Shown: in pieces, positions 15,095-64,000 of the stretch
Layout of the letters: each line of letters begins with the position of its first letter
Numbering within the stretch: the stretch's first letter is position 1
NCBI GenBank assembly: GCA_020719725.1
Contig: DYPU01000003.1
Location: 5,081-69,080 of the forward strand
Length of the DNA stretch: 64,000 nt
From: Anaerolinea sp.
GTDB lineage: Bacteria > Chloroflexota > Anaerolineae > Anaerolineales > Villigracilaceae
Reading direction: 5' to 3'
Made by a program: the position numbers and the translations under genes
Notes under the pieces: generated by a model
What the model was told of the DNA's origin: nothing
The model's input: only the letters and a program-made list of their open reading frames with translations
Databases searched by the model: none

Positions 15095-15095
15095 T

Positions 15096-20813: not shown

Positions 20814-20856
20814 ACCCTCTATTTGTAAATCCAATTCTCCATCAAAGAGAAGGCCC

Positions 20857-23348: not shown

Positions 23349-23353
23349 ATCTC

Positions 23354-24310: not shown

Positions 24311-24339
24311 ATTGCACAGATAAGTTGAGGAGTAATTTT

Positions 24340-25574: not shown

Positions 25575-25578
25575 ACAG

Positions 25579-25612
25579 AGCGGAACAATGCTTTTTTACG
25601 CATTGTTCCGCT
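25579..25612 (+). terminator. Stem-loop ending the second ABC operon
   Basis: AGCGGAACAATGC-loop-GCATTGTTCCGCT, 13-bp perfect stem. Weak T tail (TTTACCC). Confidence 0.45.
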
Positions 25613-25657
25613 TTACCCATAGATACACTCATACTTACCAAATCATGGAGAACATTC

Positions 25658-41918: not shown

Positions 41919-41969
41919 CTGGTACACTCTCAAATCATCTGCTTATTTTTGCCCGAAAGAAGAACAACC

Positions 41970-49508: not shown

Positions 49509-49572
49509 AATGCCGCCACGCCCGCAAAAAATGCTCAACTGTAGCGCTTTTGCGGTTCGATAAGGTTTCTCT

Positions 49573-50451
49573 ATGCCGAACCTCCGCCATATTCTGCGCC
49601 AAACTATTTATGAGACCGAAAAACTGGCCCAACGGGCCAAATTCGCATCCTGTCCTGCGCCGCTAAACGGCTGGCCGATTTTGCTGGGAATTTCTTTCCC
49701 TAAAAGTGGCACGCACCTGCTCGACCAGATTTTGCTCGGTTTTGCGGATGTTGCTCCATTTGCGCGCCGCCTGCACTCGTTTTATGCCCAATATGACGGT
49801 GATACCGGACGTAAGCGCTCCAGCGCCGAAACCAGCGCCTGGCTGGAGTCGCTCCGCCCGTTGGATGTGACCTCGGCCCATCTGTTTGCCTCGCCCGAAG
49901 CCCTCCGGCGCATCATTTCACCCGCTTTTGTGCCTTATTTTATCTTCCGCGACCCGCGCGACGTGGTTGTCTCGCATGTTTTTTATGTGACAGACATGGA
50001 ACCCAACCATGTTCACCATGCTCACTACCAATCGCTGCCCGATTTTGCCGCCCGGCTCAAAACCAGTATTTTGGGAATCCCCAGGTTGGCTGAACATGGG
50101 GATTCCAACCTGGAATTTCCCGACATCGCCGCCCGCTTTGCGCCTTATCTGGGCTGGCTCGACCAGCCTGAAGTCCTGGCTTTGCATTTTGAAGACCTGA
50201 TTAATGACCGTCCCGCCGCGCTGAACCAAATTAGCGAGCATTTCCTGGCGCGCGTCCCGCTCAGCGGTTCTCGAAGCGCAATTCTCGAAGCGCTCGAAGC
50301 AGCCATCAACCCTCAAAAATCGCCCACATTCCGCTCTGGTAAAACCGGCGAGTGGAAAAAACATTTCAGCGCCGAGCATAAAGCCATTTTCAAGGAATTC
50401 GCTGGAGATTTGCTGGTACGGCTAGGATATGAGCAAGATAATAACTGGTAA
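49573..50451 (+). CDS. PAPS-dependent sulfotransferase family protein
   Basis: FPKSGTHLL (5'-phosphosulfate loop), FRDPRDVVVS (3'-phosphate motif), RSGKTGEWKKHF near the C-terminus. Confidence 0.75.
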   Translation: MPNLRHILRQTIYETEKLAQRAKFASCPAPLNGWPILLGISFPKSGTHLLDQILLGFADVAPFARRLHSFYAQYDGDTGRKRSSAETSAWLESLRPLDVTSAHLFASPEALRRIISPAFVPYFIFRDPRDVVVSHVFYVTDMEPNHVHHAHYQSLPDFAARLKTSILGIPRLAEHGDSNLEFPDIAARFAPYLGWLDQPEVLALHFEDLINDRPAALNQISEHFLARVPLSGSRSAILEALEAAINPQKSPTFRSGKTGEWKKHFSAEHKAIFKEFAGDLLVRLGYEQDNNW

Positions 50452-51394
50452 GAGCAGCCCGGCCTGCTCGCTCGTCATTCGCGCCTACAATGAAGCCCGG
50501 CATTTGCCGCGTTTGCTGGAAGGGGTTAGACAGCAGAGCGTATCGGATGTCGAAGTGATTTTGGTCGATTCGGGTTCGACGGACGATACCGTTGCGATTG
50601 CCAAATCTTACGGCGCGAAAATTATCCACATTGCCCCAGCGGAGTTTACCTTTGGGCGTTCACTCAACCTGGGCCTTACGGTAGCCACCCGTGAACTGGT
50701 CGCCATTGCCTCGGCGCATGTCTACCCGGTTTATCCCGACTGGCTGGAGCGTTTGCTGGAACCCTTCGCCGACGACTCGGCGGTGGGGCTGACGTATGGC
50801 AAACAGCGCGGCCTGGCGACGAGTAAATACTCTGAGCATCAAATCTTTGCGCGTTGGTTTCCCGAAACTTCCCAATTAAGGCAAACACATCCATTTTGCA
50901 ATAATGCCAATGCCGCAGTCCGCCGCTCGGTGTGGAATCAGCACCCGTATGACGAATCTTTGACCGGGCTGGAAGATTTGGCATTTGCAGCCTGGGCGCA
51001 AGGCCAGGGCTACCGCATTGCCTATATCGCCGAAGCCGAAATCATTCACATCCACAATGAGACGCCCATTGGAGTGCGCAACCGTTATAAACGCGAAGCG
51101 ATGGCTTTTAAGCAGATTTATCCCGAAGCGCACTTTAACGCGTACGATTTTATTCACATGACGGCTAGCAATATCGTCACCGATTTGTTCCATGCAGCCC
51201 AGGCTGGCCTTTTGCGCCGGGTTTTGCCCGAAATTTTTTGGTTTCGCTACAACCAATTTTGGGGAACGTATCTGGGCTATCGCCAATCTGCCGAGTGGAA
51301 CTGGAACTTGCGTCAGACATTCTATTATCCGCGCGGACTGGTCGCCGAGTCTACCTCGCCGCGCGAGGTGGAGCCGATTCGGTATAATGAGTGA
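50429..51394 (+). CDS. Glycosyltransferase family 2
   Basis: CSLVIRAYNEARHLPRLLEGVRQQSVSDVEVILVDSGSTDDT and a downstream acidic (ED) motif. Confidence 0.8.
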   Translation: MSKIITGKSSPACSLVIRAYNEARHLPRLLEGVRQQSVSDVEVILVDSGSTDDTVAIAKSYGAKIIHIAPAEFTFGRSLNLGLTVATRELVAIASAHVYPVYPDWLERLLEPFADDSAVGLTYGKQRGLATSKYSEHQIFARWFPETSQLRQTHPFCNNANAAVRRSVWNQHPYDESLTGLEDLAFAAWAQGQGYRIAYIAEAEIIHIHNETPIGVRNRYKREAMAFKQIYPEAHFNAYDFIHMTASNIVTDLFHAAQAGLLRRVLPEIFWFRYNQFWGTYLGYRQSAEWNWNLRQTFYYPRGLVAESTSPREVEPIRYNE

Positions 51395-52133
51395 TATGAC
51401 TTCTGAGTTGGCTCGTGAAAATTTCTTACGCATGGCTGAAGACGATCGTTCTTTGGCATTGGTGACAGATTTTAGCCAGCAATCAGACCGGATGCTGATT
51501 TCGTTTGGCGGTATAAAAGGGTTTCGCGTGATTCCACCCTTCGAGTTTTTTAACCTGACCCAGGCCTTGCCCGCCAAAAAAATTTTTGTGCGTGATTTTT
51601 CTCAGAGCTGGTATCAAGCTGGTTTGCCGGGCCTTGTGGATAGCGTGGAAGGTATTGCGGCCTATTTGCGGGAACAGATTAAAGCCCAGGGGACAAAGCG
51701 CCTGGTGCTGTTGGGAAATTCGATGGGGGGCTATGCTGCCCTCCTGTTTGGCGCTTTGCTTGATGCTGATGTGGTGCTGGCATTTGCGCCGCAAACCTAC
51801 CTGGGCCTGGGGCGGCGCTTGCAGACGGGTGATTTGCGCTGGTTTAAGCAGCTACGCCGTGCCGAAAAGAATTGCAAAACCCCTCTTTTTCTTGACTTGC
51901 GCGCTTTTTTGGGTTCTTTGCCGCCGCGCCGCGGAAGTTATCACTTGTATTACAGCCGCAATGAGATTTGGGATTATTTCCACGCCCGCCATTTGCGGGG
52001 AACTTTTGTGCAATTGCATGAATCGCGCGGCAGCGGTCATCGTTTGGTGCGTGATTTGCGTGACAGCGGGCAACTGCAACAGATTTTGGTGGAGGCGTTG
52101 CGCGAGGTGGAGCCGTTTCGGCATTCTGAGTAG
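51387..52133 (+). CDS. Alpha/beta-hydrolase-fold protein (putative esterase/acyltransferase)
   Basis: GNSMGG nucleophile elbow after a beta-strand (RLVLLGNSMGGYAALLFG). The start overlaps the GT2 stop. Confidence 0.5.
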   Translation: MSDMTSELARENFLRMAEDDRSLALVTDFSQQSDRMLISFGGIKGFRVIPPFEFFNLTQALPAKKIFVRDFSQSWYQAGLPGLVDSVEGIAAYLREQIKAQGTKRLVLLGNSMGGYAALLFGALLDADVVLAFAPQTYLGLGRRLQTGDLRWFKQLRRAEKNCKTPLFLDLRAFLGSLPPRRGSYHLYYSRNEIWDYFHARHLRGTFVQLHESRGSGHRLVRDLRDSGQLQQILVEALREVEPFRHSE

Positions 52134-52228: not shown

Positions 52229-54295
52229 ATGATTAAAATAACCAATTTGTTTTCGAAAATCCGATTTATCCCAACCAATATTCCTTTATTCCTTTTGGTT
52301 GCCAGCGGATTGGCTTTTGGAATTATTTCTCCTTTTTTAGGCTTTTATCAGGATGATTGGCATTTTGTTTATTATTACGTTACGCGCGGCTTGCCAGGTT
52401 TGGTGGAAATCTTCATCTACGATGGTCACCCATTGTCTGCCTGGTCCTATATTTTAGGGTTTTGGCTTCTCGGTATAAATCCGGTTGCCTGGCAGTTATT
52501 TTCGGTTTTTTTGCGTTGGTTGGCAGCCTGGGCCGTGTGGAAATTGCTTCATCAACTTTGGCCCAATCATCTTCGTCAAACTTTTTTGTCCGCGCTATTT
52601 TTTTTGTTATATCCGGCATTTGTTTTGCAAGCGCAAGCAATTTCTTATTTTGAAGTTTGGATTAGTTATATTTTCTTAATCCTTTCTTTTTATTTTTCGG
52701 GGCGGGGGATTCAAGAAAAACATATTGGATACCATTCTCTCGGTTTTTTAAGTAAAGTTGCCCATATATTTACCAGTGAGTATGTCACTGGGCTGGAGTT
52801 TGTTCGCCCATTTATTATTTGGTACCAGCTCCCCAGCCAAGAGTATGGATCACTTAGAGAAAAGTTGATTAAGGTAATTAGACTGTGGCTTCCCTATTTA
52901 CTTATCAATATTGGCTATATTGTTTGGCGAGTCTTTATTTTCGTTTCCCCAGTAAAGGAAAGAACCGCCACAAGAATGCTTTCTGGTCTGTTGGAAAACC
53001 CAATTGAAACGACTCAAACACTTCTTTTGAATCTGATTCAGGATTTGGTGTTGCTTTTGGGAACAAGCTGGTACTCCATCCTAACGCCCAGCCAGTTCGA
53101 TTTTTCTCGGATTATTAATTGGGTTTTCTTTATCATTATGGCCCTAAGCGCCGGGCTGACATGGATTAGCTTAAAAACAATTTCAGTGGAAAAAAATAAA
53201 ACGCTGTTGAATTTGCCCCAAAATGCAATTTTTCTCGGATTTTTGTTTGTCTTATTGGGTCTGGCACCTTACTATGCGATTGGCTATTTTATGCACGCAA
53301 AATACGCGCCCTGGAATGGGCGCGTTGCCCTTGGTTCGCTGATTGGCGCTGGCATATTGATAAGTGTACTGATTCACGCCCTGATCGCATCAAGAAAAAA
53401 ACAAAATATTGTCATAGCGCTTCTGGTTGCCCTACTCATTGGCTGGCAAGTGCGCAGCGCAAACGAGTTTCGTTATTCATGGGAAAAACAGCTTAATTTT
53501 TATCAACAACTATTGTGGCGTATTCCAGAATTAAAAGAGAATACTGCATTTATCAGCGAACAGGAAATATTGCCCTTCATGGGCGATTACCCAACCGCCT
53601 TTGCGATTAATGCGTTGTATGGGCAGGTGACCTCCATAAAAGACAAAAACATTCCCTACTGGTTTTTTACAACAGTGGGGGATTTCCTGGGGAAAGAGAA
53701 AGAGCTTTCAGAAGGAATCTTGATTGGTGACGAGAAGCATTCTTTGAGTTTTGTGGGGAAAAGCCAGGAAAGCCTGATCCTTCGTTTTGAGCCTGAGCAA
53801 GGGCAGTGTTTATGGATATTGTATCCACAAGATGCGAATTCCAGTTTGCTCAATCCCACCGAGCGCCTGATTGCTCCCCTTAGCGCAATTAACCGTATCG
53901 AAAACGGTCAATCAACCCATTTAATACAAGAGATTGGCGGTTCACCGAATAGCCAGAATTGGTGTTATTTTTATCAAAAGGCTGAACTAGCCAGACAATT
54001 TAATCAATGGGATAGCGTTCTCCAACTTTGGGAACAGGCCCAATTGAACTCTCAGCGCCCAGGCAATGGATTTGAATACACCCCGTTTATTCAGGCCTAT
54101 GCTTATACGGGCGATTGGGAGACAGCGCTGGCCCTAACCAATGATGCCAATCGATTAAGCCGCGCAATGAATTGGTCATTATGCCCGTTATGGGAAGACC
54201 TTCGCCAAAACACACCTGCCTCATCCCAAAAGGACAAGGCGTTTAAGGCCCTCAAGGAACGCTTGAAGTGTTCAGATTTTGCAGTCAACCCGTAA
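52229..54295 (+). CDS. Polytopic membrane protein, paralogue P1 (GT-C-like candidate) with Cys-containing, TPR-like C-terminal ectodomain
   Basis: 688 aa. YQDDWH in the first loop, more than 10 hydrophobic segments, C-terminal NWCYFYQKAELARQ. Paralogous to 55012-57042 and 57198-59207. Confidence 0.6.
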   Translation: MIKITNLFSKIRFIPTNIPLFLLVASGLAFGIISPFLGFYQDDWHFVYYYVTRGLPGLVEIFIYDGHPLSAWSYILGFWLLGINPVAWQLFSVFLRWLAAWAVWKLLHQLWPNHLRQTFLSALFFLLYPAFVLQAQAISYFEVWISYIFLILSFYFSGRGIQEKHIGYHSLGFLSKVAHIFTSEYVTGLEFVRPFIIWYQLPSQEYGSLREKLIKVIRLWLPYLLINIGYIVWRVFIFVSPVKERTATRMLSGLLENPIETTQTLLLNLIQDLVLLLGTSWYSILTPSQFDFSRIINWVFFIIMALSAGLTWISLKTISVEKNKTLLNLPQNAIFLGFLFVLLGLAPYYAIGYFMHAKYAPWNGRVALGSLIGAGILISVLIHALIASRKKQNIVIALLVALLIGWQVRSANEFRYSWEKQLNFYQQLLWRIPELKENTAFISEQEILPFMGDYPTAFAINALYGQVTSIKDKNIPYWFFTTVGDFLGKEKELSEGILIGDEKHSLSFVGKSQESLILRFEPEQGQCLWILYPQDANSSLLNPTERLIAPLSAINRIENGQSTHLIQEIGGSPNSQNWCYFYQKAELARQFNQWDSVLQLWEQAQLNSQRPGNGFEYTPFIQAYAYTGDWETALALTNDANRLSRAMNWSLCPLWEDLRQNTPASSQKDKAFKALKERLKCSDFAVNP

Positions 54296-54340
54296 ATGAA
54301 CTTGCGGGCACAAAAATAACAGACAATCTTAGAGAGAAAT

Positions 54341-55015
54341 ATGCCTACAATTGCTGCCCTGGTCCCTATGCGTCACAATAGCCAGCGTGTTCCCGGCAAA
54401 AACTACCGCGCGCTGGCCGAAAAGCCACTTTACGAGCACATCATCGAAGTATTGCTGGCCGTCCCAGAAATTAGCACTATTATGGTGGATACTGATTCTG
54501 AGCCGGTGATGGCTGGCCTGCGCCGCGATTTTCCGCAAGTGCAGTTGATTGAGCGGCCCGAAAACCTGCGCGCGCCCGAAATCCCGATGAATGAGATTCT
54601 GGCCTACGATACCGCTCAGCTTGAAGCTGATTTTTATCTTCAGACGCACAGCACCAACCCGCTTCTGCGCCCCGAAACACTTTCGCGCGGCATTCAAAAA
54701 TTCCTGCAGCAATATCCTGCCTACGATTCCATGTTTTCGGTCACGCGCCTGCAAACCCGGCTGTGGGATCAACTGACCCGGCCCATCAACCACAACCCGG
54801 CGATTTTGCTTCAAACTCAGGATTTACCGCCTGTTTACGAGGAAAACTCCTGCTTTTATATGTTTACCCGGCAAAACTTACTAACGCGCCGCAACCGCAT
54901 GGGCCTGCGCCCGCTTATGGTAGAAATCCCGCGCATGGAAGCAGTTGATATTGACGAAGAAGCCGACTTCCAAATTGCAGACTTGCTTATGCGGCGGCGT
55001 TTGGGATTAAGCTAA
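54341..55015 (+). CDS. Cytidylyltransferase (NeuA/KdsB-type, CTP_transf_3-like)
   Basis: 224 aa. IAALVPMRHNSQRVPGKNYRALAEKPL matches the acylneuraminate/KDO cytidylyltransferase N-terminal loop. Confidence 0.7.
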   Translation: MPTIAALVPMRHNSQRVPGKNYRALAEKPLYEHIIEVLLAVPEISTIMVDTDSEPVMAGLRRDFPQVQLIERPENLRAPEIPMNEILAYDTAQLEADFYLQTHSTNPLLRPETLSRGIQKFLQQYPAYDSMFSVTRLQTRLWDQLTRPINHNPAILLQTQDLPPVYEENSCFYMFTRQNLLTRRNRMGLRPLMVEIPRMEAVDIDEEADFQIADLLMRRRLGLS

Positions 55016-57042
55016 TGACAAAGAATCTCAGAGATCGTCTTGTAATCGTAGCGAAACGCTGCCGGGTAGTGTGGGTCTTCAGACAAGAAAGTGCATAAAG
55101 GAAAACGCATCTTGTTTCTTCCCTTAATTTCTTTATTGAAGAGCGACTTTGCATCTTCAATTCTGCCGAGATTGATTAGCGCCTCAAGAAAAGGCACTAA
55201 TTCCGATTTATCCCTTGCTACAAGTTTTAGGGCAACTGCCTGATTATATAAATTGCCAATTTCTTCCCAGTTTCCAGGCTGGCGCGCCAGAGCCGCTTTT
55301 TGATAGTAGTAACACCAATTGTGGCTTGGTTCAGAACCAAATATCTGGGCAGGTGAAATTGGGGATGGGCCAAATGAAATGATTCGATCTACACGCGAAT
55401 ATTCCCCAACCTGTTGAATTAGCAGAGTCTCGTTCTCCGAATAGATTGGCAGAGTACCATCGATTACATCGACGCAAGACGCGGATGATGGCACGCTTAT
55501 CAACAGCAAGTTGCTAAAGTCTCTGTGCAGTTTTATGTCACGGACACGGTTTTCAAGAACGCTTTTCTTCAATATGTCGTAGGCCGTATCGGATGTTAGC
55601 ACTTCGGCCTGAATTGCGGGGGCCGCGGCTGGGATTGGCCGGTAGATTAAATTTAGCGGCCCCCACACCTCGTAATCTTGTTGCATTCGATACCCTTCTG
55701 GCAGATGTACCATTACTAGCGTATCGTTTTTGATTTCAGGCGCACGCCAGGTAAGCTGCCACCAAGTTTCCCGTTGATAGTCCCATAGTCTTGCCCAGTA
55801 ATCAGCATTCAGCATTTGGGTGGAGACTGCCAGTCCAATCAGCCCAACCAGCAGCAGCTTGCGGAACTTTGGTCGCAACATAAGCGCAAACCCTGCAACT
55901 AGCAGGACTACTCCGCTGATGGGGTGCAGGCCATAGCTTTTATAGGCATCAAATAAATCAACTTAACGACCAGAAAGCACAACCGGAAAAACAGCACAGG
56001 CAACGATGAAAGCGCCAAGCCAGAGAAACTCTTGGAGTAGCCCCGTTGTCTTTTCTTCAGCATCGTTGCCAGCCCACCATTTTTTGAAGAAGAACAAGTA
56101 GAACAGCACCAAGCCTACCACCGTGCCGGCTGTCAAGACAGCGCTTGCCAGGTCTGAGTAAGACGCATTCGCAAATAATAGATAAGGTTTTACAAACCAC
56201 GCAAAAATAGAAGTATCTAAAAAATTTTTGGCAGTCTCAACCCCTAAACGTAGCAACATGGCGCGCAAGTTGCCAAGATAGTCACTCGCCAATCTGGCCG
56301 CATCTGTAGCATTTCGGGAGCTTTCAAAGATGAAAATGCGCCAATAGATAAAGCCAGCCATCGCTAACGGGTAAGGCCACCACCTTTTAACAACTTCCAA
56401 CACCAGCGATCGAGTTTTTGTGAAGCCCTGCTGCACCAAGCCGTATACTAAAAGCGCCAGGCGCATTCCTTCCAAGCCAATCATATATTCGTAGATGAAT
56501 AAATAATTCACGGTTAGAATAAAAGATAAAAAACCCAACCCAAATTTCCAGAGTTTATGGTTGGTTTTCATTGCCTGAAGCATTAAGGCAATTGAAACAA
56601 GTGCGCAGCCAAACCCGTAAAGATGATTTTGCTTGGTGTTTGCATTCGGTTGCGAAAGGAAACCCGGATAGACAATAAAAAGCACAACCATCAACGTGGT
56701 AATGTATTTTTGGCTCGGCCAAATTAAGCGCAATATCCAAAAGAAAGCCAACCCGCCAATCAACCGCCATAGCAATGCATATAAGTGCCAGTGGACGATT
56801 GTTTCACCTAGCAACCGATAAACAAGAGAATAAACAACCCCCATAAAAGGACGATCTGTGCTAAACAATGGGATAATGCTTTGCGCGCCTCGTGCCTGAC
56901 CAGACCAAAGCAAATACCAATCGTCGTGATAGTAGCCTAATTGCGGAATTCTGCTGCCGTGCGTAATAAGCGTGGTAAATAAAATCAACAAAAAAGCAAA
57001 GAAAATTTCGCTTTTAATGATTTTTTGAATACTTTGCTTCAT
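55012..57042 (-). pseudogene. Paralogue P2 of the same membrane protein family, interrupted by one in-frame TAA (55963-55965)
   Basis: ORFs 55963-57042 and 55012-55881 are in the same frame. The 27 codons between them are open and align with the paralogues. Motifs YHDDWY and HNWCYYYQKAALARQ are present. Confidence 0.6.
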
Positions 57043-57084
57043 TTATCTTCTCCATCCAGCTTTAATTCCCGGCTTCACATGAAA

Positions 57085-57128
57085 AAATGGGCAAACTGCC
57101 TAAGTTAAGTAAGATCAGTTGCCCATTT
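57085..57128. promoter_or_regulatory. Inverted repeat in the divergent P2/P3 intergenic region
   Basis: AAATGGGCAAACTG (57085-57098) versus CAGTTGCCCATTT (57116-57128). 13 bp are complementary with one bulged A and a 17-nt spacer. Confidence 0.45.
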
Positions 57129-57197
57129 CAGCGTAAAATTACACTCTTAAAAGCCCTCAAGGTATTTTCATCCCTGTCTGCCCTCTAAAAACAACCT

Positions 57198-59207
57198 ATG
57201 AAAACTCTTTTTGCCAGACACCCCCTTGCCTTCTCCAGTCTTATCCTGATATTCATCTCAGCCCTTATTTACCTGCCCCAGATCGGCCAAATGGGCTATC
57301 TGAACGACGATTGGTACCTGATGTACGATGCCCAAGTGCGCGGCGCAGACGTTTTCAGCCAGGTCTTTGCCAGCGACCGACCTTTGCGAGCCTTTGTGAT
57401 GGCCCCAGCCTTCACCTTGTTTGGCCTAAACCCACTGCCCTACCACCTCAGCGCCTACGCCTTTCGGCTCATCGCTGGACTGGCCGTCCTTTGGCTGGCG
57501 CGTCAACTATGGCCCAAACGCCCCGATTTCAGCCTGCTGAGCGCCCTCCTTTTTCTCATCTACCCTGGCTTCTTATCTCAAATCAACGCCATCGACTACC
57601 TTTCGCACCTTGTCAGCCTGGCCGCCATCACCCTCTCCATCGCGTTTACGCTGGCTGCCCTCAAAACCAGCGCCAGCGCTCAAAAATGGAGCTTTAGCGC
57701 CCTGGCAGTGCTTTTAGGCTGGGTTTCTTACGGTTTAATGGAGTATTTCATCGGCTTCGAAGGCTTGCGGCTTGCCAGTGCGGCCCTGTATTTTTGGCAG
57801 GACGATGCAAACGGCCCCCTGCGGCGCAAAGTTGTCTCCCTTACCCGCGCCATTCTGCCTTTTTGGTTGGCTCCGCTCGGCTTTCTAAGCTGGAGACTGT
57901 TTCTGTTCAGCCCAGAACGACGCGCCACTGACACCTCCTCCCAGCTTGGCGCATTACTTTCCTCTCCGCTCATCACCGGCGGCTGGTGGCTGGTTTACCT
58001 GATTCAAGACAGTCTCAACACCATTTTTCTGGCCTGGGCGGTTCCGCCCTACACCCTGGCATTTACCCTGCGTCTGCGAGACAGTTTGCTCGGTCTGGGG
58101 CTGGCTTTTGGGTTGGGCTTGTTCTCCTGGTTCATTTTCGCCAAACTAATCCCGTCATTGTCGCAACCTGATATTTCGCTACCCTCTCAACCCCTTTGGG
58201 TTGGCCTATTTTCCGTGCTGGTTGGCCTCATCCCGATCCTTTTTGCCAATCGCCATGTTGAATTTGCCAATTACTCGCGCTACACCATCCCTGGCATGGT
58301 CGGCGCGGCACTGGTGATGGCTGCGCTTATTTTTGCCCTGCCTCGCGGCCATTTGCGCCACATTGGGCTGGCCTTACTGGTTGGCCTGGGCGCCCTTACC
58401 CATCATGCCAATGCAGTCAATGCGGTAGCCAATCAAAAAGTAATTCAAACCTTTTGGTGGCAGGTTAGCTGGCGCATCCCACAAATCCAGCCAGGCACTT
58501 TACTGACTGCCATGCACCCCGGTTTTGGCATTCAAGAAGATTACTTCATCTGGGGCCCAGCCAATCTAATCTACGCCCCGCAAAAACAAACCGGGCCGCA
58601 AGTAAAAATTAGCTTGCCCGCCGCCATTTTGACAGATGAAAATACCCTCAAGATGCTGACCGGCCAAGGCCGCGAAGAAACTGAACGGCGCGGCAACCTG
58701 AGCATTCGAGAATACGATACGCTGCTAGTGCTGACGCTTCCCAATCTTTCGGCTTGTGTGCGCGTAATAGACGGCAGCGCCCCAGAGCTATCTACGCTCG
58801 ACGATAACCGCATCCGTTTGGTGGCTTCAAACTCAAATCTTCAAAACGTGCTACCCGATGGCTCCCACCAAACGCCGCCCGCTGTAATTTTTGGCCCGGA
58901 ACCAATTCACGACTGGTGTTATTATTACCAAAAAGCGGCGCTAGCCCGCCAACAAGGCGATTTTGCTCAGGTTGCGGCTCTTGGCGACGAAGCTCTTCAG
59001 TTGGGCTACTATCCCGGCGACCGGGTGGAGTGGCTACCCTTCCTGCAAGCCTACGCCAGCCTCGAACGTCAACCCAATGTGCGCCAAATTATCCGCATTT
59101 TGCGCGAAGACGCCTATCTGACCCAGCAAACCTGCCAAAATGCTCAGGCCTGGGAACTTTCTGCCCCCATGCGTTCTCTTTTTGATGAGTTACTCTGCCA
59201 AAACTAA
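57198..59207 (+). CDS. Polytopic membrane protein, paralogue P3 (GT-C-like candidate)
   Basis: 669 aa. LNDDWY loop motif, DRP, LWP, YPGF, C-terminal HDWCYYYQKAALARQ. Confidence 0.6.
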   Translation: MKTLFARHPLAFSSLILIFISALIYLPQIGQMGYLNDDWYLMYDAQVRGADVFSQVFASDRPLRAFVMAPAFTLFGLNPLPYHLSAYAFRLIAGLAVLWLARQLWPKRPDFSLLSALLFLIYPGFLSQINAIDYLSHLVSLAAITLSIAFTLAALKTSASAQKWSFSALAVLLGWVSYGLMEYFIGFEGLRLASAALYFWQDDANGPLRRKVVSLTRAILPFWLAPLGFLSWRLFLFSPERRATDTSSQLGALLSSPLITGGWWLVYLIQDSLNTIFLAWAVPPYTLAFTLRLRDSLLGLGLAFGLGLFSWFIFAKLIPSLSQPDISLPSQPLWVGLFSVLVGLIPILFANRHVEFANYSRYTIPGMVGAALVMAALIFALPRGHLRHIGLALLVGLGALTHHANAVNAVANQKVIQTFWWQVSWRIPQIQPGTLLTAMHPGFGIQEDYFIWGPANLIYAPQKQTGPQVKISLPAAILTDENTLKMLTGQGREETERRGNLSIREYDTLLVLTLPNLSACVRVIDGSAPELSTLDDNRIRLVASNSNLQNVLPDGSHQTPPAVIFGPEPIHDWCYYYQKAALARQQGDFAQVAALGDEALQLGYYPGDRVEWLPFLQAYASLERQPNVRQIIRILREDAYLTQQTCQNAQAWELSAPMRSLFDELLCQN

Positions 59208-59226: not shown

Positions 59227-60216
59227 ATGAAAAAAATCCTTTTCTCTGCCCCCTACATGCTACCCTTCGTGGAACGCTTTCGCCCGGTTTTCAACCATTA
59301 TGGCCTCGAACTCATTTTGCCCGAAGTTCACGAAAGGCTCGAAGAAGTCGAAATCTTGCCCTACGCCGGTCAATTTGACGGTGCAATTTGCGGAGATGAC
59401 CGCTACACTCCGCGCGTTCTCGCCGCCTGTGCGCCGCGTCTCAAAGTCATTTCCAAATGGGGCACGGGCATCGATTCCATCCACGCTGAAACCTGTCACC
59501 AGCTCGGAATTAAATTGTGCCGCACTCCCAACGCCTTCACCACCCCGGTGGCTGATAGCGTTATGGGATATATGCTGGCCTTTGCGCGCCGCCAACCCTG
59601 GATGAGCCAGCAAATGAAAAGCCTCATTTGGGACAAAATTCCAGGTAAAGCGCTAAGCGAATTTACGCTGGGGATTATTGGCGTCGGTGCAATTGGCAAG
59701 GCCCTCACCCGCCGCGCCCGCGCTTTTGGCATGAACGTCCTCGGCACAGACATTATCGACCTTGACCATGTCTTTGTGGGCGAAACGGGCATTCAAATAA
59801 CCCACCTGGAAGATTTGCTTGCCAATTCCGATTTTATCTCGCTCAACTGTGATCTAAACCCCACTTCCCAACACATTCTCAACGCTGAAACGCTCAAACA
59901 CACCAAGCCCGGGGCCATCGTCATCAACACCGCGCGTGGGCCGCTGGTTGATGAACCAGCCCTAATCGCGGCGCTTCAATCCGGCCATTTGGGCGGCGCG
60001 GCCCTGGATGTCTTCGAAGTGGAACCTTTGCCACACGATAGCCCACTGATGGGCATGGACAATGTCTTACTAGCGCCTCACAACGCCAATTCCAGCCCGG
60101 CGGCCTGGGAGCGAGTCCATTGGAACACCATCAAAAACGTATTAGATGGCCTGGGAATCGACGCCAGTGATCTCGCCCGCTTCCGTAACGAGCCAGCCAG
60201 GAGTGCAAATGACTAA
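59227..60216 (+). CDS. D-isomer-specific 2-hydroxyacid dehydrogenase (phosphoglycerate dehydrogenase-like)
   Basis: Start at MKKILFSAPY. GIIGVGAIGKAL NAD-binding loop, INTARGPLVDE, ALDVFEVEPLP, APHNA. Confidence 0.85.
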   Translation: MKKILFSAPYMLPFVERFRPVFNHYGLELILPEVHERLEEVEILPYAGQFDGAICGDDRYTPRVLAACAPRLKVISKWGTGIDSIHAETCHQLGIKLCRTPNAFTTPVADSVMGYMLAFARRQPWMSQQMKSLIWDKIPGKALSEFTLGIIGVGAIGKALTRRARAFGMNVLGTDIIDLDHVFVGETGIQITHLEDLLANSDFISLNCDLNPTSQHILNAETLKHTKPGAIVINTARGPLVDEPALIAALQSGHLGGAALDVFEVEPLPHDSPLMGMDNVLLAPHNANSSPAAWERVHWNTIKNVLDGLGIDASDLARFRNEPARSAND

Positions 60217-60973
60217 AACTATTCTCATCACCGGCGCCGTTGGCGGAATTGGCCGCGCCACTGTTCAACTCTTTGCCCAAAAAGGCTGGCTGGTGATTGG
60301 TGTGGATCGTTCCCCCCTCTCTGGCGATGACGATTTTTTCCCATCCAATGGGCGCTTCATCCAGGCTGATATTTCCCGCCCAGATGTAATGGAACGCATC
60401 TTCATCCAGACTCGCGAATCCACGGCCACATTAGATGTCCTCGTTAACAATGCCGCCTACCAGATTGCCAAGCCCCTGCTCGAAACTACCGTCGAAGAAT
60501 GGGACGCTGTCATGGCCTCCAACTTGCGTTCGGTTTTCCTCGCCGCCAAATTGGCCTACCCACTCATCAAACAGGCCGGCAGCGGCGCAATCGTCAATGT
60601 CTCCTCGGTTCACGCCATTCAAACCTCTGCCAATATCGCCGCCTACGCCGCCAGCAAAGGCGGGCTTTTGGCGCTAACACGCGCCATGGCAATTGAATTT
60701 GCTTCTGACAATATCCGCGTGAACGCCATTCTGCCTGGCGCAGTGGATACTCCCATGCTGCGCGCCGGGCTTGGGCGCGGCCATGTCGGGCAGGGCGATG
60801 TACAAAATCGCCTGGAAAATCTGGCGCGCAAAACCGTCAACGGGCGCGTTGGCCAACCATCCGAAATCGCCCACGCCATCTACTTTCTGGCCGATAACGA
60901 ACAATCCTCCTTTATGACTGGTCAGGCCCTCGTGATCGACGGCGGCGCAACCGCCCGACTCAGTACCGAGTAA
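60209..60973 (+). CDS. Short-chain dehydrogenase/reductase (SDR)
   Basis: ILITGAVGGIGRAT, NNAA, SSVHA...YAASKGG catalytic pattern. AGGAG RBS and 8-nt overlap with the upstream gene. Confidence 0.9.
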   Translation: MTKTILITGAVGGIGRATVQLFAQKGWLVIGVDRSPLSGDDDFFPSNGRFIQADISRPDVMERIFIQTRESTATLDVLVNNAAYQIAKPLLETTVEEWDAVMASNLRSVFLAAKLAYPLIKQAGSGAIVNVSSVHAIQTSANIAAYAASKGGLLALTRAMAIEFASDNIRVNAILPGAVDTPMLRAGLGRGHVGQGDVQNRLENLARKTVNGRVGQPSEIAHAIYFLADNEQSSFMTGQALVIDGGATARLSTE

Positions 60974-61006
60974 CAGAAACTCCACAATCGGAAGAAATTT
61001 TCACCC

Positions 61007-61816
61007 ATGCTCAACCAACTCAAAGCCTCATCCCTCTACCCTCTGTTGCGCGATACCTACATCACCCTGCGTGATCTGCCGCAACTGCCCGCTGCCTACC
61101 TTCACCCCTGGCGGCGAGAGAGTATTCAACGCCTGGCTGAACTGAAAGACAAACACAAAGGCCAGCGCGCCTTCATCATCGGCAACGGCCCCAGCCTCAA
61201 AAATACCGACCTGTCGAAGCTCAAAGGCGAAATCACCTTTGGCATGAATCGCATCTATCTGATGTTCCCTGAACTCGGCTTTCGCACCACCTACCTGAGC
61301 GTGGTCAACGACCTGGTCATCGAACAAACTGCCGCAGACCTCGCCAGCCTGGACCTACCCAAATTCATCTGTTGGCGCTCTCGGCGTTTTTTCCAACAAC
61401 CCCATTCGGCCTCCTTCAGCCTGCCCACCTTTCTCCACACCACCTACGACTCGCCACGTTTCTCATCCGATGTGCGCGGACGGGTTTGGGAAGGAGCCAC
61501 CGTCACCTACGTCACCCTGCAACTGGCCTTTCACATGGGGTTTAGCCAGGTTTACCTGCTTGGCGTAGACCACAACTATGAGACCAAAGGCAAACCCAAC
61601 ACTACCATCACCTCCCAAGGTGACGATCCTAACCACTTTCACGCCGCATATTTTGGCAAAGGCTTTCGCTGGCAGCTTCCCGACCTCGAAACCTCCGAAA
61701 TGGCCTACCGCATGGCCCGCCGCGCCTACGAAAAGGCCGGACGCAGCCTCCAGGATGCCACCATCGCCGGTAAATTGACCATTTTTGAAAAAGCGAACTT
61801 TAACGACCTCTTTTGA
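61007..61816 (+). CDS. DUF115 / MptE-like (Maf or sialyltransferase-like) protein
   Basis: AFIIGNGPSLKNTDLSKLKGEITFGMN and YLLGVDHNY resemble the DUF115 family that includes flagellin nonulosonic-acid transferases. Confidence 0.55.
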   Translation: MLNQLKASSLYPLLRDTYITLRDLPQLPAAYLHPWRRESIQRLAELKDKHKGQRAFIIGNGPSLKNTDLSKLKGEITFGMNRIYLMFPELGFRTTYLSVVNDLVIEQTAADLASLDLPKFICWRSRRFFQQPHSASFSLPTFLHTTYDSPRFSSDVRGRVWEGATVTYVTLQLAFHMGFSQVYLLGVDHNYETKGKPNTTITSQGDDPNHFHAAYFGKGFRWQLPDLETSEMAYRMARRAYEKAGRSLQDATIAGKLTIFEKANFNDLF

Positions 61817-61861
61817 CAGTTTCCCGCGCCTCCTGTCATTGGCGCAGCCCGGACATTCTCT

Positions 61862-63391: not shown

Positions 63392-64000
63392 ACAATCCCA
63401 CTGTTTCTGTGATCACCCCATCCTACAACCAATCCCGCTACCTGGAGCAAACTCTGCGCTCGGTGCTAATGCAGGATTACCCCAACCTCGAATATTTTGT
63501 CATTGATGGCGGCTCGACTGATTCCAGCGTGGAGATTATCCGCCAGTACGAGCGTCAGCTAACGGGTTGGGTTTCGGAAAAAGACCAGGGCCAGGCAGAA
63601 GCGATCAATAAAGGATTCCGGCGCGCGGGCGGAGAAATCATCGCCTGGCTCAATTCCGATGATCTTTACCAGCCTGGAGCCATCCAAAAAGCGGTTGAAA
63701 CCTTCCAAAAATATCCCGCAGCCGGGTTGGTTTATGGCAATGTCTTGTCCATTGACGAAAATTCAAAATCTTTCAACTTGCAAACTTTTAAACCCATAAC
63801 ATTGGTAGATTTAATGTCTTTCAATATCATTAGCCAGCCAGCGGTTTTTATGCGCCGCGCGGTACTCGAACAAGCCGGGTGGCTCGATCTCAGCTTTCAC
63901 CTATTGCTTGATCATCAACTCTGGCTGCGAATGGCGCAACTGGCCCCGCTGATTTACATTCCTGAGACGCTGGCTGCCGCCCGTTACCACGCCGAAGCCA
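63388..64000 (+). CDS. Glycosyltransferase family 2, 3' end outside window
   Basis: TTG start overlapping the upstream TGA (TTGA). Frame open to the window end. VSVITPSYNQSRYLEQTLRSVLMQDYPNLEYFVIDGGSTDSS and NSDD motifs. Confidence 0.8.
   Translation, partial: MNNPTVSVITPSYNQSRYLEQTLRSVLMQDYPNLEYFVIDGGSTDSSVEIIRQYERQLTGWVSEKDQGQAEAINKGFRRAGGEIIAWLNSDDLYQPGAIQKAVETFQKYPAAGLVYGNVLSIDENSKSFNLQTFKPITLVDLMSFNIISQPAVFMRRAVLEQAGWLDLSFHLLLDHQLWLRMAQLAPLIYIPETLAAARYHAEA

What the first reader, a model, noticed from the sequence alone, without database searches (positions are those of the whole stretch)
52229..59207. Three paralogues of an uncharacterised polytopic membrane protein family (DDW loop motif plus conserved-Cys, TPR-like ectodomain)
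Seen: P1 has 688 aa, P2 has about 676 codons once its two halves are joined, and P3 has 669 aa. All three share the same architecture. After the first TM helix there is a conserved acidic-aromatic loop: GFYQDDWHF, GYYHDDWYL and GYLNDDWYL. They also share DRP (P2 and P3), LWP and YP(G/A)F motifs, at least 10 hydrophobic segments, and a C-terminal soluble domain of about 250 aa. That domain carries NWCYFYQKAELARQ, HNWCYYYQKAALARQ or HDWCYYYQKAALARQ and a further conserved Cys (SCVDVIDG in P2, ACVRVIDG in P3). Established: GT-C fold transferases (ArnT, PglB, PMT, TMTC) carry catalytic acidic residues in the first extracytoplasmic loop, and some have C-terminal TPR domains for acceptor recognition. 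Inference: these are GT-C-like transferases of an undescribed subfamily whose diversified ectodomains select different acceptors. Three copies side by side suggests acceptor or donor specialisation.
Basis: partly seen in the sequence, partly recalled or inferred. Interest (0 to 1): 0.65.

Follow-up and report, generated by a model that had tools for sequence, protein, structure and literature searches.

The report
Unnamed GT-C membrane glycosyltransferase family, Anaerolineae
Three neighbouring genes encode members of a large, unnamed family of membrane proteins, seen here only in Anaerolineae bacteria, whose predicted structure is that of lipid-linked-sugar (GT-C) glycosyltransferases and which sits in a conserved gene cluster that probably builds a sulfated, sialic-acid-like surface glycan; one copy carries a real premature stop codon.

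Summary
P1 (52229-54295, +), P2 (57042-55012, -) and P3 (57198-59207, +) are full-length paralogues (BLASTP E 3e-42 to 1e-96) and carry the quoted motifs. P2 is cut by one in-frame TAA, which is also present in four independent metagenome assemblies.

None of the three hits Pfam or NCBIfam. The family is nevertheless large: 3612 clusters at 50% identity. The best 80 genome loci are all Chloroflexota, mostly Anaerolineae.

An AlphaFold2 model of P3 (pLDDT 94.7) matches only GT-C_A enzymes with high probability: ArnT, STT3, PglB, Pmt4 and ALG3. TM-scores are low (0.26-0.42), and profile comparisons with PMT_2 and with PDB sequences are not significant. The layout fits GT-C_A. Invariant D38 lies at the tip of the first helix of the first outer loop, conserved basic residues lie in loops 4 and 5, and there is a C-terminal domain with four invariant cysteines. 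Only its last ~100 residues are TPR/PPR-like.

P3 is the universal copy in a strongly syntenic cluster: sulfotransferase, GT2, cytidylyltransferase, dehydrogenases, MptE-like protein and a PMT_2 GT-C. P1 and P2 are old, patchy accessory subfamilies with atypically low GC.

Verdict: a new sequence family of a known fold class. Donor and acceptor are unknown.

The parts
52229..54295 (+). P1, 688 aa. Accessory paralogue of the 'P1-type' subfamily. The DDW motif is at residues 42-44 (window 52352-52360).
   Evidence: ORF. Aligns end to end with P3 (E 3e-42). Falls in a pure clade of 8 in the NJ tree, always in the slot upstream of the cytidylyltransferase. GC 0.423 and GC3 0.441 against 0.52-0.57 for the core cluster. 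Has exactly four Cys, all in the invariant columns. Lacks R61, R241, T244 and R352 of the family consensus.
55012..57042 (-). P2, 676 codons. Accessory paralogue of the 'P2-type' subfamily, interrupted by one in-frame stop. The DDW motif is at residues 40-42 (window 56917-56925).
   Evidence: Keeps 59 of the 66 positions that are at least 90% conserved in the family. Falls in a pure clade of 6 in the NJ tree. Lies on the opposite strand to the rest of the cluster, whereas P2-type orthologues elsewhere are co-directional. GC 0.452.
55963..55965 (-). In-frame TAA at codon 360 of P2, in loop 5 (GR*V).
   Evidence: Sequence. P2-type orthologues have N here and P3-type mostly H. Contigs of four independent metagenome runs show no variant at this position. 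No ATG, GTG or TTG follows until 55881, so the helix encoded between the stop and that start would be lost.
57198..59207 (+). P3, 669 aa. The universal, core-cluster copy. The public gene call starts 31 codons too late, at M32.
   Evidence: Homologues align from residues 1-20 onward. AF2 pLDDT 94.7, pTM 0.92. GC 0.548 matches the cluster.
57198..58475 (+). P3 membrane domain, residues 1-426.
- TM1: 9-25.
- Outer loop 1: helices 38-48 and 62-75.
- TM2-7: 79-236.
- Loop 4: 237-292.
- TM8-11: 293-405.
   Evidence: DSSP of the model. Foldseek hits to GT-C_A enzymes. Mapped onto the GT-C_A definition in PMC13503287 and PMC12041525. The TM count of 11 is an inference.
57306..57314 (+). D37-D38-W39 of P3. 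D38 is the candidate catalytic base at the N-terminal tip of the first helix of loop 1.
   Evidence: D38 and W39 are invariant in 42 sequences that go down to 29% identity; D37 is conserved in at least 90%. The helix starts at residue 38. Family flank charges are KR 2.9 / DE 0.6 before TM1 and KR 1.0 / DE 2.1 after it.
58476..59204 (+). P3 C-terminal soluble domain, residues 427-669. It comprises an alpha/beta subdomain (427-565) and three TPR/PPR-like helix pairs (573-667), with four invariant Cys (520, 574, 646, 667).
   Evidence: Models. Foldseek finds only PPR/TPR solenoids over ~100-125 columns, E 0.04-0.4. The family profile hits a designer PPR protein at E 8.6e-5 on residues 593-642. 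Cys statistics.
54341..55015 (+). CTP_transf_3 cytidylyltransferase (PseF/KdsB-like), lying between P1 and P2. It is the most constant neighbour of the family.
   Evidence: Pfam E 2.4e-24. The NCBIfam PseF model scores 68 bits, below its cut-off. Present next to the family gene in 58-62 of 80 loci at 59-83% identity.
47850..52133 (+). Upstream cluster genes:
- KpsS/C-like 'surface carbohydrate biosynthesis' protein, 47850-49508.
- Sulfotransferase, 49573-50451.
- GT2, 50429-51394.
- Alpha/beta hydrolase, 51387-52133.
   Evidence: Pfam and NCBIfam results. Synteny across loci. The hydrolase is found in 0 of 80 loci.
59227..64000 (+). Downstream cluster genes:
- 2-hydroxyacid dehydrogenase, 59227-60216.
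- SDR, 60209-60973.
- MptE-like/DUF115 protein, 61007-61816.
- PMT_2 GT-C, 61862-63391.
- GT2, from 63388, running off the window.
   Evidence: The same order and strand recur in most loci at 60-80% identity.

Best explanation
P1, P2 and P3 belong to an unnamed family of integral-membrane glycosyltransferases with the GT-C_A fold, seen here only in Chloroflexota (mostly Anaerolineae).

Proposed mechanism, by analogy with solved GT-C_A enzymes:
- The N-terminus is cytoplasmic.
- A seven-helix conserved module presents the first outer loop, whose first helix starts with invariant D38 (the DDW motif). D38 acts as the catalytic base that deprotonates the acceptor.
- A polyprenyl-phosphate-linked sugar (or a polyprenyl-diphosphate-linked glycan) enters from the membrane beneath loop 4.
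- Its phosphate is held by conserved basic residues of loop 4 (R241), loop 5 (R352, R361) and nearby helices (R191, R233).
- The sugar is transferred with inversion to an acceptor on the outer face of the membrane.
- The acceptor is positioned by the four variable TM helices and by the C-terminal domain, which is stabilised by two disulfides (alpha/beta subdomain plus three TPR/PPR-like repeats).

Roles of the three copies:
- P3 is the housekeeping copy of a conserved operon that also encodes a sulfotransferase, GT2 enzymes, a CMP-sugar synthetase, a Maf/MptE-like protein, a KpsS-like protein and a PMT_2-type GT-C. The pathway therefore most likely builds a sulfated, acidic (nonulosonic-acid-like) cell-surface glycoconjugate.
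- P1 and P2 are accessory paralogues that probably add or attach a variant sugar or acceptor.
- P2 is most likely a recently inactivated pseudogene in this lineage.

What is shown: paralogy, family size and taxonomic range, fold similarity, motif conservation, synteny, and the reality of the stop codon.

What is inferred: topology beyond TM1, catalysis, donor, acceptor and the pathway product.
For: - Fold. The AF2 model has pLDDT 94.7 and pTM 0.92. The 12 best Foldseek hits in the PDB are all GT-C_A enzymes: ArnT 5f15 (E 1e-4), STT3 8b6l_I and 6ezn_F, Pmt4 9i5k_A, PglB 5ogl and others, at prob 0.97-1.0. Further down the list ALG3 (9s6r_A) scores prob 0.97. All transporters and WaaL score prob < 0.25. 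About 280 columns align to Pmt4 at 6-7 A rmsd, which is the size of the conserved module.
- Layout. It matches the published GT-C_A definition. There are two helices in loop 1, and the invariant Asp lies at the tip of the first. The conserved RATD motif lies in the loop after TM7, and NR..SRY in the loop two helices later. The 7+4 TM plus outward C-terminal domain arrangement is that of ALG9 and ALG12.
- Topology. The N-flank of TM1 is basic and the C-flank acidic across the family. P1 and P3 have exactly four Cys, and all four lie in invariant columns of the C-terminal domain. The window also encodes a VKOR-family protein, a family known for forming disulfide bonds outside the cytoplasm.
- Context. 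The order sulfotransferase - GT2 - [P1] - cytidylyltransferase - [P2] - P3 - 2-hydroxyacid dehydrogenase - SDR - MptE-like - PMT_2 - GT2 recurs in most loci that are long enough. A second cluster type pairs the family with NeuB, a CMP-synthetase-phosphatase fusion, a PAPS synthase, sulfotransferases and a PMT-type GT-C.
- Paralogue history. P1-type and P2-type sequences form pure clades tied to their syntenic slots. Both window copies have low GC.
Against: - No sequence-level homology to any known GT-C family was found. Pfam and NCBIfam give nothing, even at E <= 10 on 42 members. Profile searches of PDB sequences find no GT-C. hhalign against 38 PMT_2 orthologues gives prob 5% and E 0.007.
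- Foldseek TM-scores are only 0.26-0.42, with rmsd of 12-19 A for the full-length alignments.
- Counting every long helix of the model as membrane-spanning gives 12, which would put the C-terminal domain in the cytoplasm. The outward orientation requires that helix 257-288 does not cross the membrane, and the positive-inside rule does not settle this.
- None of the three GT2 proteins has a clear TM anchor typical of GtrB/ArnC-type polyprenyl-phosphate sugar synthases.
- No flippase or initiating phosphoglycosyltransferase is visible in the cluster.
- No biochemical data exist for any member.
Confidence: 0.72

Rival explanations
1. The fold is the same, but the chemistry is en bloc transfer. 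The family would be the oligosaccharyl- or polysaccharyl-transferase ('ligase') of the pathway. It would take a glycan that is fully assembled, sulfated and NulO-capped on polyprenyl diphosphate in the cytoplasm, and attach it to a surface protein or wall polymer, as STT3, PglB and AglB do. The PMT_2 protein would then be the monosaccharide transferase.
For: - STT3 and PglB score as well as ArnT in Foldseek and give the highest query TM-scores (0.34-0.37).
- The conserved partners are a sulfotransferase in the window, which uses PAPS by established knowledge of that enzyme class, and, in the second cluster type, a PAPS synthase. There are also CMP-sugar enzymes. Both need cytoplasmic donors (established knowledge), so the decorated glycan must be exported and attached as a block.
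- A nearly invariant aromatic motif, FWWQVxWRxP (419-428), follows the last TM helix directly. This is about where OSTs carry WWDYG (the OST motif position is from my own knowledge).
- The C-terminal alpha/beta domain is also an OST-like feature.
Against: - No WWD(Y/W)G, DK or MI motif is present, and there is no sequence similarity to STT3/PglB profiles.
- No initiating phosphoglycosyltransferase, Wzx or ABC exporter is seen in the cluster.
- A DxD/E metal site in loop 2 or loop 5 was not identified.
- No feature found here distinguishes a diphosphate from a monophosphate donor.
Confidence: 0.3
2. The proteins are non-catalytic GT-C-like membrane proteins: a scaffold, chaperone or substrate-binding subunit, as PIGU is in the GPI transamidase. 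In this reading the fold is kept but glycosyl transfer is absent.
For: - Non-enzymatic proteins with this fold exist. PIGU is cited as a structural homologue of PimE in PMC12041525.
- No activity has been shown for any member of the family.
- Sequence homology to active GT-C families is undetectable.
Against: - The acidic residue at the catalytic position is invariant across sequences that go down to 29% identity, together with a set of conserved Arg, Glu and Asp residues in the outer loops.
- The family sits constantly in glycan-biosynthesis operons.
Confidence: 0.06
3. The proteins are not GT-C at all. They would be a transporter or flippase, or a Wzy/WaaL/SEDS-type polymerase or ligase that the fold search has mis-assigned.
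For: - Foldseek TM-scores to GT-C enzymes are low.
- The cluster lacks an obvious flippase or polymerase.
Against: - MFS, MATE, LeuT-type transporters, MurJ and WaaL all score prob 0.06-0.25 with TM 0.07-0.14. GT-C_A enzymes score prob ~1.0.
- The long first outer loop with two helices and an invariant Asp is a GT-C_A signature and not a transporter feature.
Confidence: 0.04
4. This concerns P2 only. The TAA does not kill the gene. P2 would be made as two polypeptides (catalytic TM module, and last TM helix plus ectodomain) or by stop-codon readthrough, and would remain functional.
For: - Apart from the stop, P2 keeps 59 of the 66 highly conserved positions and both reading frames are intact.
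- The allele is the only one seen in four samples spanning 13 years.
Against: - The first possible start after the stop is 27 codons downstream. It removes one TM helix, which would invert the topology of the C-terminal piece.
- The sampled populations differ by only 1-2 SNPs per 600 nt, so they are near-clonal. Fixation and intactness therefore say little about selection.
- All five P2-type orthologues are uninterrupted.
Confidence: 0.2

Closest known systems
ArnT (CAZy GT83; PDB 5f15, 5ezm), undecaprenyl-phosphate-L-Ara4N:lipid A transferase
   Same: It is the best Foldseek hit (E 1e-4, prob 1.0). It is a bacterial GT-C_A enzyme with the catalytic Asp in the first periplasmic loop and a C-terminal periplasmic domain. 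It uses a polyprenyl-monophosphate sugar donor made by a GT2 enzyme.
   Different: There is no detectable sequence similarity. TM-score is 0.26-0.35. The C-terminal domain differs: here an alpha/beta subdomain plus TPR/PPR-like repeats with two predicted disulfides. ArnT has 13 TM helices (my own knowledge) against a likely 11 here. The acceptor cannot be lipid A if, as is generally held for Chloroflexota (my own knowledge, not tested here), these organisms lack LPS.
STT3 / PglB / AglB oligosaccharyltransferases (GT66)
   Same: They score as well as ArnT and give the highest query TM-scores, 0.34-0.37. They share the C-terminal extracytoplasmic alpha/beta domain after the last TM helix and have an aromatic motif close to the membrane.
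   Different: The family has no WWDYG, DK or MI motifs, no Pfam STT3 hit, and no identified metal-binding DxD in loop 2.
PMT / PMT_2 and TMTC1-4 protein O-mannosyltransferases (GT39, GT105)
   Same: Pmt4 is a high-probability hit, and its conserved module aligns over ~280 columns. TMTC proteins and many bacterial PMT_2 proteins combine a GT-C membrane domain with C-terminal TPR repeats facing away from the cytoplasm (my own knowledge). A PMT_2 protein is encoded five genes downstream, at 61862-63391.
   Different: hhalign against 38 PMT_2 orthologues is not significant (prob 5%). There is no MIR domain. There are only three TPR/PPR-like helix pairs, and they are preceded by an unmatched alpha/beta subdomain.
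ALG9 / ALG12 (GT22) and ALG3 (GT58)
   Same: ALG9 and ALG12 have seven conserved plus four variable TM helices and a C-terminal lumenal domain. In ALG3 the donor phosphate is held by basic residues of loops 4 and 5. The catalytic base lies in the first helix of loop 1 (PMC13503287). ALG3 9s6r_A is a Foldseek hit at prob 0.97.
   Different: These are eukaryotic ER enzymes that act on a dolichol-PP-linked acceptor. There is no sequence similarity, and their C-terminal domains are small.
GT136 (Citrobacter youngae ORF12) and Gtr/YfhO-type three-component glycosylation systems
   Same: GT136 is a recent example of a GT-C family recognised only through AlphaFold. It has a periplasmic domain after TM1 and an extra C-terminal carbohydrate-binding domain, and it acts after polymerisation using a polyprenyl-phosphate sugar (PMC11127046). 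GT2 genes lie near the family, as in those systems.
   Different: The cluster has no PRPP-dependent synthase, no MATE flippase and no GtrA-type flippase. The C-terminal domain is helical-repeat, not beta-rich. The GT2 proteins lack clear membrane anchors.

Membership tests
GT-C_A structural class (definition: PMC13503287, PMC12041525) | The overall fold resembles solved GT-C_A enzymes, with an N-terminal conserved module of seven TM helices. | tested here: met
   All 12 best Foldseek hits are GT-C_A enzymes at prob 0.97-1.0 and E 1e-4 to 3e-2. The ~280-column alignments to Pmt4 have 6-7 A rmsd. Non-GT-C folds score prob < 0.25. Caveat: TM-scores are 0.26-0.42, and no residue-level superposition was available.
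GT-C_A structural class | The first extracytoplasmic loop contains two helices, and the first carries the catalytic Asp or Glu at its tip. | tested here: met
   Helices 38-48 and 62-75 lie between TM1 (9-25) and TM2 (79-104). D38 is the first residue of helix 1 and is invariant; D37 is conserved in at least 90%. The catalytic role itself was not tested.
GT-C_A structural class | The active-site loop faces the extracytoplasmic side. | tested here: inconclusive
   Charge bias around TM1 (KR 2.9 before, 1.0 after; DE 0.6 before, 2.1 after) supports an N-in, loop-1-out orientation. The four invariant Cys in the C-terminal domain, together with a VKOR gene in the window, support an outward C-terminus. 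The helix count (11 or 12) and the positive-inside rule leave the C-terminal half unresolved.
GT-C_A structural class | Uses an isoprenoid-phosphate-linked sugar as donor. | not testable with these tools
   There are only indirect pointers: conserved basic residues in loops 4 and 5 at the positions that bind the donor phosphate in ALG3 and PimE, and GT2 genes in the cluster.
PMT_2 / PMT (Pfam PF13231 / PF02366; GT39, GT83) | A significant match to the family HMM or profile. | tested here: not met
   Pfam gives no hit at E <= 0.1 for P1-P3, and no PMT or PMT_2 hit at E <= 10 for 42 family members. hhalign against the window PMT_2 protein gives E 0.15, and against 38 PMT_2 orthologues E 0.0074 with prob 5%.
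Oligosaccharyltransferase STT3/PglB/AglB (GT66) | A WWD(Y/W)G motif in the C-terminal domain and a match to the STT3 HMM. | tested here: not met
   There is no STT3 Pfam hit. A profile search of PDB sequences gives one OST-named chain at E 0.65, which is not significant. The family consensus has FWWQVxWRxP but no WWDxG.
TPR / PPR-like helical repeat (C-terminal domain only) | Tandem antiparallel helix pairs that match known alpha-solenoids. | tested here: met
   Six helices of 11-13 residues span 573-667. Foldseek finds designed PPR and TPR proteins over ~100-125 columns at E 0.04-0.4 and prob up to 1.0. The family profile hits dPPR10 at E 8.6e-5. This applies only to ~100 of the ~245 ectodomain residues, and Pfam TPR models are not reached.
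Wzy / WaaL / SEDS (polymerase or ligase) | Fold similarity to WaaL, RodA or Wzy. | tested here: not met
   WaaL 7tpg_B scores E 0.25, prob 0.23 and TM 0.14.

The most novel reading that the evidence does not exclude
The family is the long-missing attachment enzyme of an Anaerolineae-wide surface glycosylation system. It would be a new GT-C_A family (a future CAZy family), unrelated in sequence to STT3/PglB, that transfers a pre-assembled, sulfated, nonulosonic-acid-containing glycan from a polyprenyl diphosphate carrier to an envelope protein or wall polymer. This would be an independent bacterial origin of OST-like chemistry. The accessory P1 and P2 types would act as alternative acceptor- or glycan-specific transferases.
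Probability: 0.25. Interest if true: 0.75.

Novelty: new variant of a known kind. Interest (0 to 1): 0.5.

Why it matters
Anaerolineae are among the most abundant filamentous bacteria in sediments, biofilms and wastewater sludge, yet their cell envelope is poorly understood. This family has thousands of members, carries no annotation, and is the most constant membrane enzyme of a highly conserved operon. That operon combines sulfation, CMP-activated acidic sugars and lipid-linked glycosyl transfer.

Recognising the family as GT-C_A turns a block of 'hypothetical proteins' into a testable pathway for a sulfated, sialic-acid-like surface glycan. It also offers a candidate new CAZy family with an unusual acceptor-side domain (alpha/beta plus TPR/PPR-like, with two predicted disulfides). 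Finally, it shows how far GT-C sequences can diverge while keeping the catalytic layout.

Tried and rejected
- Pfam and NCBIfam scans of P1, both P2 halves and P3 gave nothing, apart from a meaningless 17-bit MotX (Sel1-repeat) hit on the P2 C-terminal half.
- A Pfam scan of 42 diverse members at E <= 10 gave only scattered single hits: three TPR families, DUF6541 and others.
- Profile searches of all PDB sequences with A1 and A3 found no GT-C. They found only a designer PPR protein on the helical repeats and one non-significant OST-named chain at E 0.65.
- hhalign of the family profile against the window's own PMT_2 protein, and against an alignment of 38 PMT_2 orthologues taken from the fetched loci, was not significant. 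The aligned stretch is nevertheless the topologically equivalent one: end of loop 1, TM2, TM3.
- I tried to settle the topology from family-averaged hydropathy and K/R counts. This is decisive for TM1 and loop 1 but not for the C-terminal half.
- The fold search of the isolated ectodomain gave no match at E <= 1e-3. The alpha/beta subdomain remains unmatched.
- I looked for inverted repeats that might explain the inversion of P2, and for promoters or terminators. Nothing exceeded chance.
- I tested whether the neighbouring 478-aa polytopic protein with a YWADDF motif is a family member. hhalign says it is not.
- Literature searches found no description of this family or cluster.

Full report

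Yes. The ORF list gives P1 at 52229..54295 (+, 688 aa) and P3 at 57198..59207 (+, 669 aa). On the minus strand there are two ORFs, 57042..55963 (359 aa) and 55881..55012 (289 aa). Reading the minus strand across the gap shows that the two are in the same frame. They are separated by one TAA (window 55963-55965) and 27 sense codons, so P2 is a 676-codon gene with a single nonsense codon.

The three proteins align from end to end. BLASTP gives 2e-47 (P1-P2), 3e-42 (P1-P3) and 1e-96 (P2-P3), at 26-34% identity. The only correction is that P2 reads IWP where P1 and P3 read LWP.

The TAA is not an assembly artefact. The NCBI assembly and an independent Logan assembly both call the gene as two pieces. 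Contigs from four separate metagenome runs (soil 2012, biofilm 2014, two cave samples 2025) cover the site without any variant. Uninterrupted P2-type orthologues have Asn at this position (GRNV), and P3-type proteins mostly have His.

**2. How large is the family, and is it annotated?**

Pfam-A and NCBIfam give no hit for any of the three proteins. A scan of 42 diverse relatives at E <= 10 also gives no consistent hit.

The family is nevertheless large:
- A word-seeded search with P3 returned at least 858 proteins. None had a Pfam domain on record. Source names are shown for only about a quarter of proteins, and every one shown was 'hypothetical protein', several of them from Anaerolineae MAG records.
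- An exhaustive profile search of cluster representatives at 50% identity found 3612 proteins at E <= 1e-3 and 1478 at E <= 1e-30. The best 150 were nearly all about 670 aa long, apart from some N-terminally truncated fragments.
- A scan of species-representative genomes gave 355 loci. The best 80 are all Chloroflexota, mostly Anaerolineae, Anaerolineales or Anaerolineaceae MAGs.

The window itself therefore most likely comes from an Anaerolineae genome. Its cluster genes are 60-80% identical to those of such MAGs.

**3. What fold do these proteins have?**

An AlphaFold2 model of P3, built on an 80-sequence alignment, is very confident (mean pLDDT 94.7, pTM 0.92).

Foldseek against the PDB gives twelve best hits, all GT-C_A glycosyltransferases at probability 0.97-1.0:
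- ArnT (5f15 at E 1e-4; 5ezm)
- STT3 from human, yeast and dog OST complexes
- Chaetomium Pmt4
- PglB

ALG3 follows further down the list at probability 0.97. MFS, MATE and LeuT-type transporters, pyrophosphatases, MurJ and the WaaL ligase follow with probability 0.06-0.25 and TM-scores near 0.1.

There are caveats. TM-scores to the GT-C enzymes are only 0.26-0.42. The tool returns no residue alignment.

At the sequence level nothing links the family to known GT-C families:
- Profile searches of all PDB sequences find no GT-C.
- hhalign against the window's own PMT_2 protein gives E 0.15.
- hhalign against an alignment of 38 PMT_2 orthologues extracted from the fetched loci gives E 0.007 and probability 5%. 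The stretch it picks is the topologically equivalent one (end of loop 1, TM2, TM3), but the score is not significant.

The assignment is therefore a fold-level one.

**4. How does the anatomy compare with the GT-C_A definition?**

Recent structural papers define GT-C_A enzymes as follows (PMC13503287; PMC12041525):
- They use isoprenoid-linked sugars.
- They have an N-terminal conserved module of seven TM helices.
- The first outer loop contains two helices, and the first carries the catalytic base at its tip.
- Loop 4 arches over the donor.
- The donor phosphate is held by basic residues of loops 4 and 5.
- A variable C-terminal module follows. In ALG9 and ALG12 it consists of four TM helices plus a lumenal domain.

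P3 maps onto this closely:
- TM1 is 9-25.
- Loop 1 has helices 38-48 and 62-75.
- D38 is the first residue of helix 1. D38 and W39 are invariant down to 29% identity.
- D37, D60 and R61 are at least 90% conserved, and P62 is invariant.
- Six further helices run to residue 236. YPGFLSQxN lies at the outer end of TM3, and E188 and R191 lie at the outer end of TM6.
- Next comes a loop with the conserved motif R241-A-T244-D245.
- Four more hydrophobic helices follow: 293-317, 330-349, 361-379 and 386-405.
- The second loop of this block carries N351-R352 ... S360-R361-Y362.

On topology, the flanks of TM1 show a clear positive-inside bias across the family: KR 2.9 and DE 0.6 before it, KR 1.0 and DE 2.1 after it. 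This puts DDW outside. P1 and P3 contain exactly four cysteines each. All four lie in the four invariant Cys columns of the C-terminal domain. The window also encodes a VKOR-family protein, a family known for forming disulfide bonds outside the cytoplasm. Both points favour an outward-facing C-terminal domain.

One issue remains unresolved. If the 32-residue helix 257-288 were membrane-spanning, the count would be 12 and the C-terminus would be cytoplasmic. Family-averaged charge counts do not decide the matter. I treat the 7+4 arrangement as the more likely one, because it places all conserved loops on the same side. This is an inference.

**5. What is the ectodomain?**

A separate model of residues 408-669 is equally confident (pLDDT 94.3). 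It has no PDB match at E <= 1e-3. The only hits are designed PPR and TPR solenoids that cover ~100-125 columns (E 0.04-0.4). The family profile also picks up a designer PPR protein on residues 593-642 (E 8.6e-5).

So the last ~100 residues (six helices, 573-667) are TPR/PPR-like. Residues 427-565 form an alpha/beta subdomain without a recognisable relative.

Loop 4, the variable TM helices and the alpha/beta subdomain are the least conserved, at 17-25% for P1. In solved GT-C_A enzymes the acceptor binds mainly to the variable module (PMC13503287). The pattern is therefore still compatible with different acceptors or donors.

**6. What is the genomic context?**

I ran tblastn with the window's cluster proteins against the 80 fetched loci. 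It shows a strikingly conserved, co-directional gene order:

KpsS/C-like protein - sulfotransferase - GT2 - [P1-type] - CTP_transf_3 cytidylyltransferase - [P2-type] - P3-type - 2-hydroxyacid dehydrogenase - SDR - MptE-like/DUF115 - PMT_2 GT-C - GT2 - [second PMT_2] - [GT2]

The neighbours are 55-80% identical to the window's proteins, except PMT_2 at 30-51%. P3 itself is only 41-55% identical to its orthologues.

The P3 type is present in every locus. The P1 type is present in seven loci and the P2 type in five. One locus (L037) has all three in the window's order.

In an NJ tree the P1-type and P2-type sequences form pure clades of 8 and 6, and these match their syntenic slots. They are therefore old subfamilies and not recent tandem duplicates.

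In the window, P1 (GC 0.423, GC3 0.441) and P2 (GC 0.452, GC3 0.482) differ clearly from P3 (0.548, 0.61) and from the other cluster genes (0.52-0.57). This suggests they were acquired laterally from a lower-GC relative. P2 is also inverted relative to its orthologues.

A second recurrent context is seen in loci such as L076. There the family lies with a TagF-like protein, two sulfotransferases, a bifunctional ATP-sulfurylase/APS-kinase, a PMT-type GT-C, an SDR, a cytidylyltransferase-phosphatase fusion and NeuB.

Across both contexts the constant companions are sulfation, CMP activation of a nonulosonic-type sugar, and a PMT-type GT-C.

**7. What is the most likely mechanism?**

I propose that the family catalyses an inverting glycosyl transfer on the outer face of the membrane from a polyprenyl-(di)phosphate-linked donor:
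- D38 acts as the catalytic base.
- R241, R352, R361, R191 and R233 hold the donor phosphate.
- The variable helices and the disulfide-stabilised ectodomain hold the acceptor.
- The pathway product is a sulfated, acidic surface glycoconjugate.

My confidence that these are GT-C_A transferases is about 0.7. Within that, I cannot separate two readings:
- ArnT/PMT-like monosaccharide transfer from a polyprenyl-monophosphate sugar.
- OST-like en bloc transfer.

Three points favour the OST-like reading. The partner enzymes use cytoplasmic donors (PAPS, CMP-sugars), so a decorated glycan would have to be exported whole. The STT3 hits are as good as the ArnT hit. A nearly invariant FWWQVxWRxP motif follows the last TM helix.

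Three points count against it. OST motifs are absent. No initiating phosphoglycosyltransferase or flippase is present in the cluster. The co-encoded PMT_2 protein could equally fill that role.

The non-catalytic reading and the non-GT-C reading are both unlikely.

**8. What is the status of P2?**

Apart from the stop, P2 keeps 59 of the 66 positions that are at least 90% conserved in the family. However, the first start codon after the stop lies 27 codons downstream, and using it would delete a TM helix. The sampled populations are nearly clonal. I conclude that P2 is most likely a recent pseudogene of an accessory copy. A functional split or readthrough is not excluded (about 0.2).

**9. How novel is this?**

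The fold class and the general chemistry are well known. New GT-C families recognised only through structure prediction continue to appear, for example GT136 (PMC11127046).

Three things are new here:
- a very large sequence family without any model or name, seen only in Chloroflexota among the loci examined;
- its particular C-terminal domain;
- its tight linkage to a conserved sulfation and CMP-sugar operon.

I found no paper that describes the family or the cluster. I rate it a new variant of a known kind, with interest of about 0.5.

Noticed in passing
window 57198-57290 (the first 31 codons of P3): The public gene call for P3 starts at M32 (638 aa) and so omits TM1. Homologues align from residues 1-20 onward, and the longer ORF restores the N-in topology. 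The deposited annotation is therefore probably truncated.
   Followed up: partly
L001:17043-18479 (just beyond the window end, about 64333-65769 in window coordinates): A 478-aa polytopic protein with about 11 hydrophobic segments and no Pfam or NCBIfam hit. It carries YWADDF right after its first TM helix, which resembles a GT-C motif. It is found in only 2 of 80 loci. hhalign shows no relation to the P family.
   Followed up: partly
window 41949-42980 (+): A 343-aa protein with a C-terminal VKOR domain (E 3e-23). The VKOR family is known for forming disulfide bonds outside the cytoplasm, which is relevant to the four invariant Cys of the family's ectodomain.
   Followed up: no
window 51387-52133 (+): An alpha/beta-hydrolase gene immediately upstream of P1. 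It has no counterpart in any of the 80 related loci, so it is another lineage-specific insertion in the conserved cluster.
   Followed up: partly
L076:1253-17590 (similar in L071, L079, L032, L018): A second cluster type around a family member. It contains a TagF-like protein, sulfotransferases, a GFO/IDH/MocA oxidoreductase, a bifunctional ATP-sulfurylase/APS-kinase, a PMT-type GT-C, an SDR, a CTP_transf_3-HAD fusion and NeuB. Together these form a complete-looking module for nonulosonic acid synthesis and sulfation. There are also unannotated proteins of about 576 aa.
   Followed up: partly
window 47850-49508 (+) and 61007-61816 (+): Two conserved cluster members: a KpsS/KpsC-like protein ('surface carbohydrate biosynthesis' / BFO_1060 family) and an MptE-like/DUF115 protein (Maf-like). 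From my own knowledge, both types are elsewhere linked to transfer of CMP-activated Kdo or nonulosonic acids. No NeuB-type synthase lies in this cluster, so the identity of the CMP-sugar is open.
   Followed up: no
window 8704-27696 (+): Two to three consecutive Opp/Dpp-type peptide ABC transporter operons. They include unusually long solute-binding proteins (720, 661 and 859 aa) and six ATPase genes. They are unrelated to the finding.
   Followed up: no
window 52229-54295 and 55012-57042: P1 and P2 have GC3 of 0.44 and 0.48, against 0.56-0.68 for all neighbouring genes. This marks two compositional islands inside an otherwise uniform operon.
   Followed up: yes
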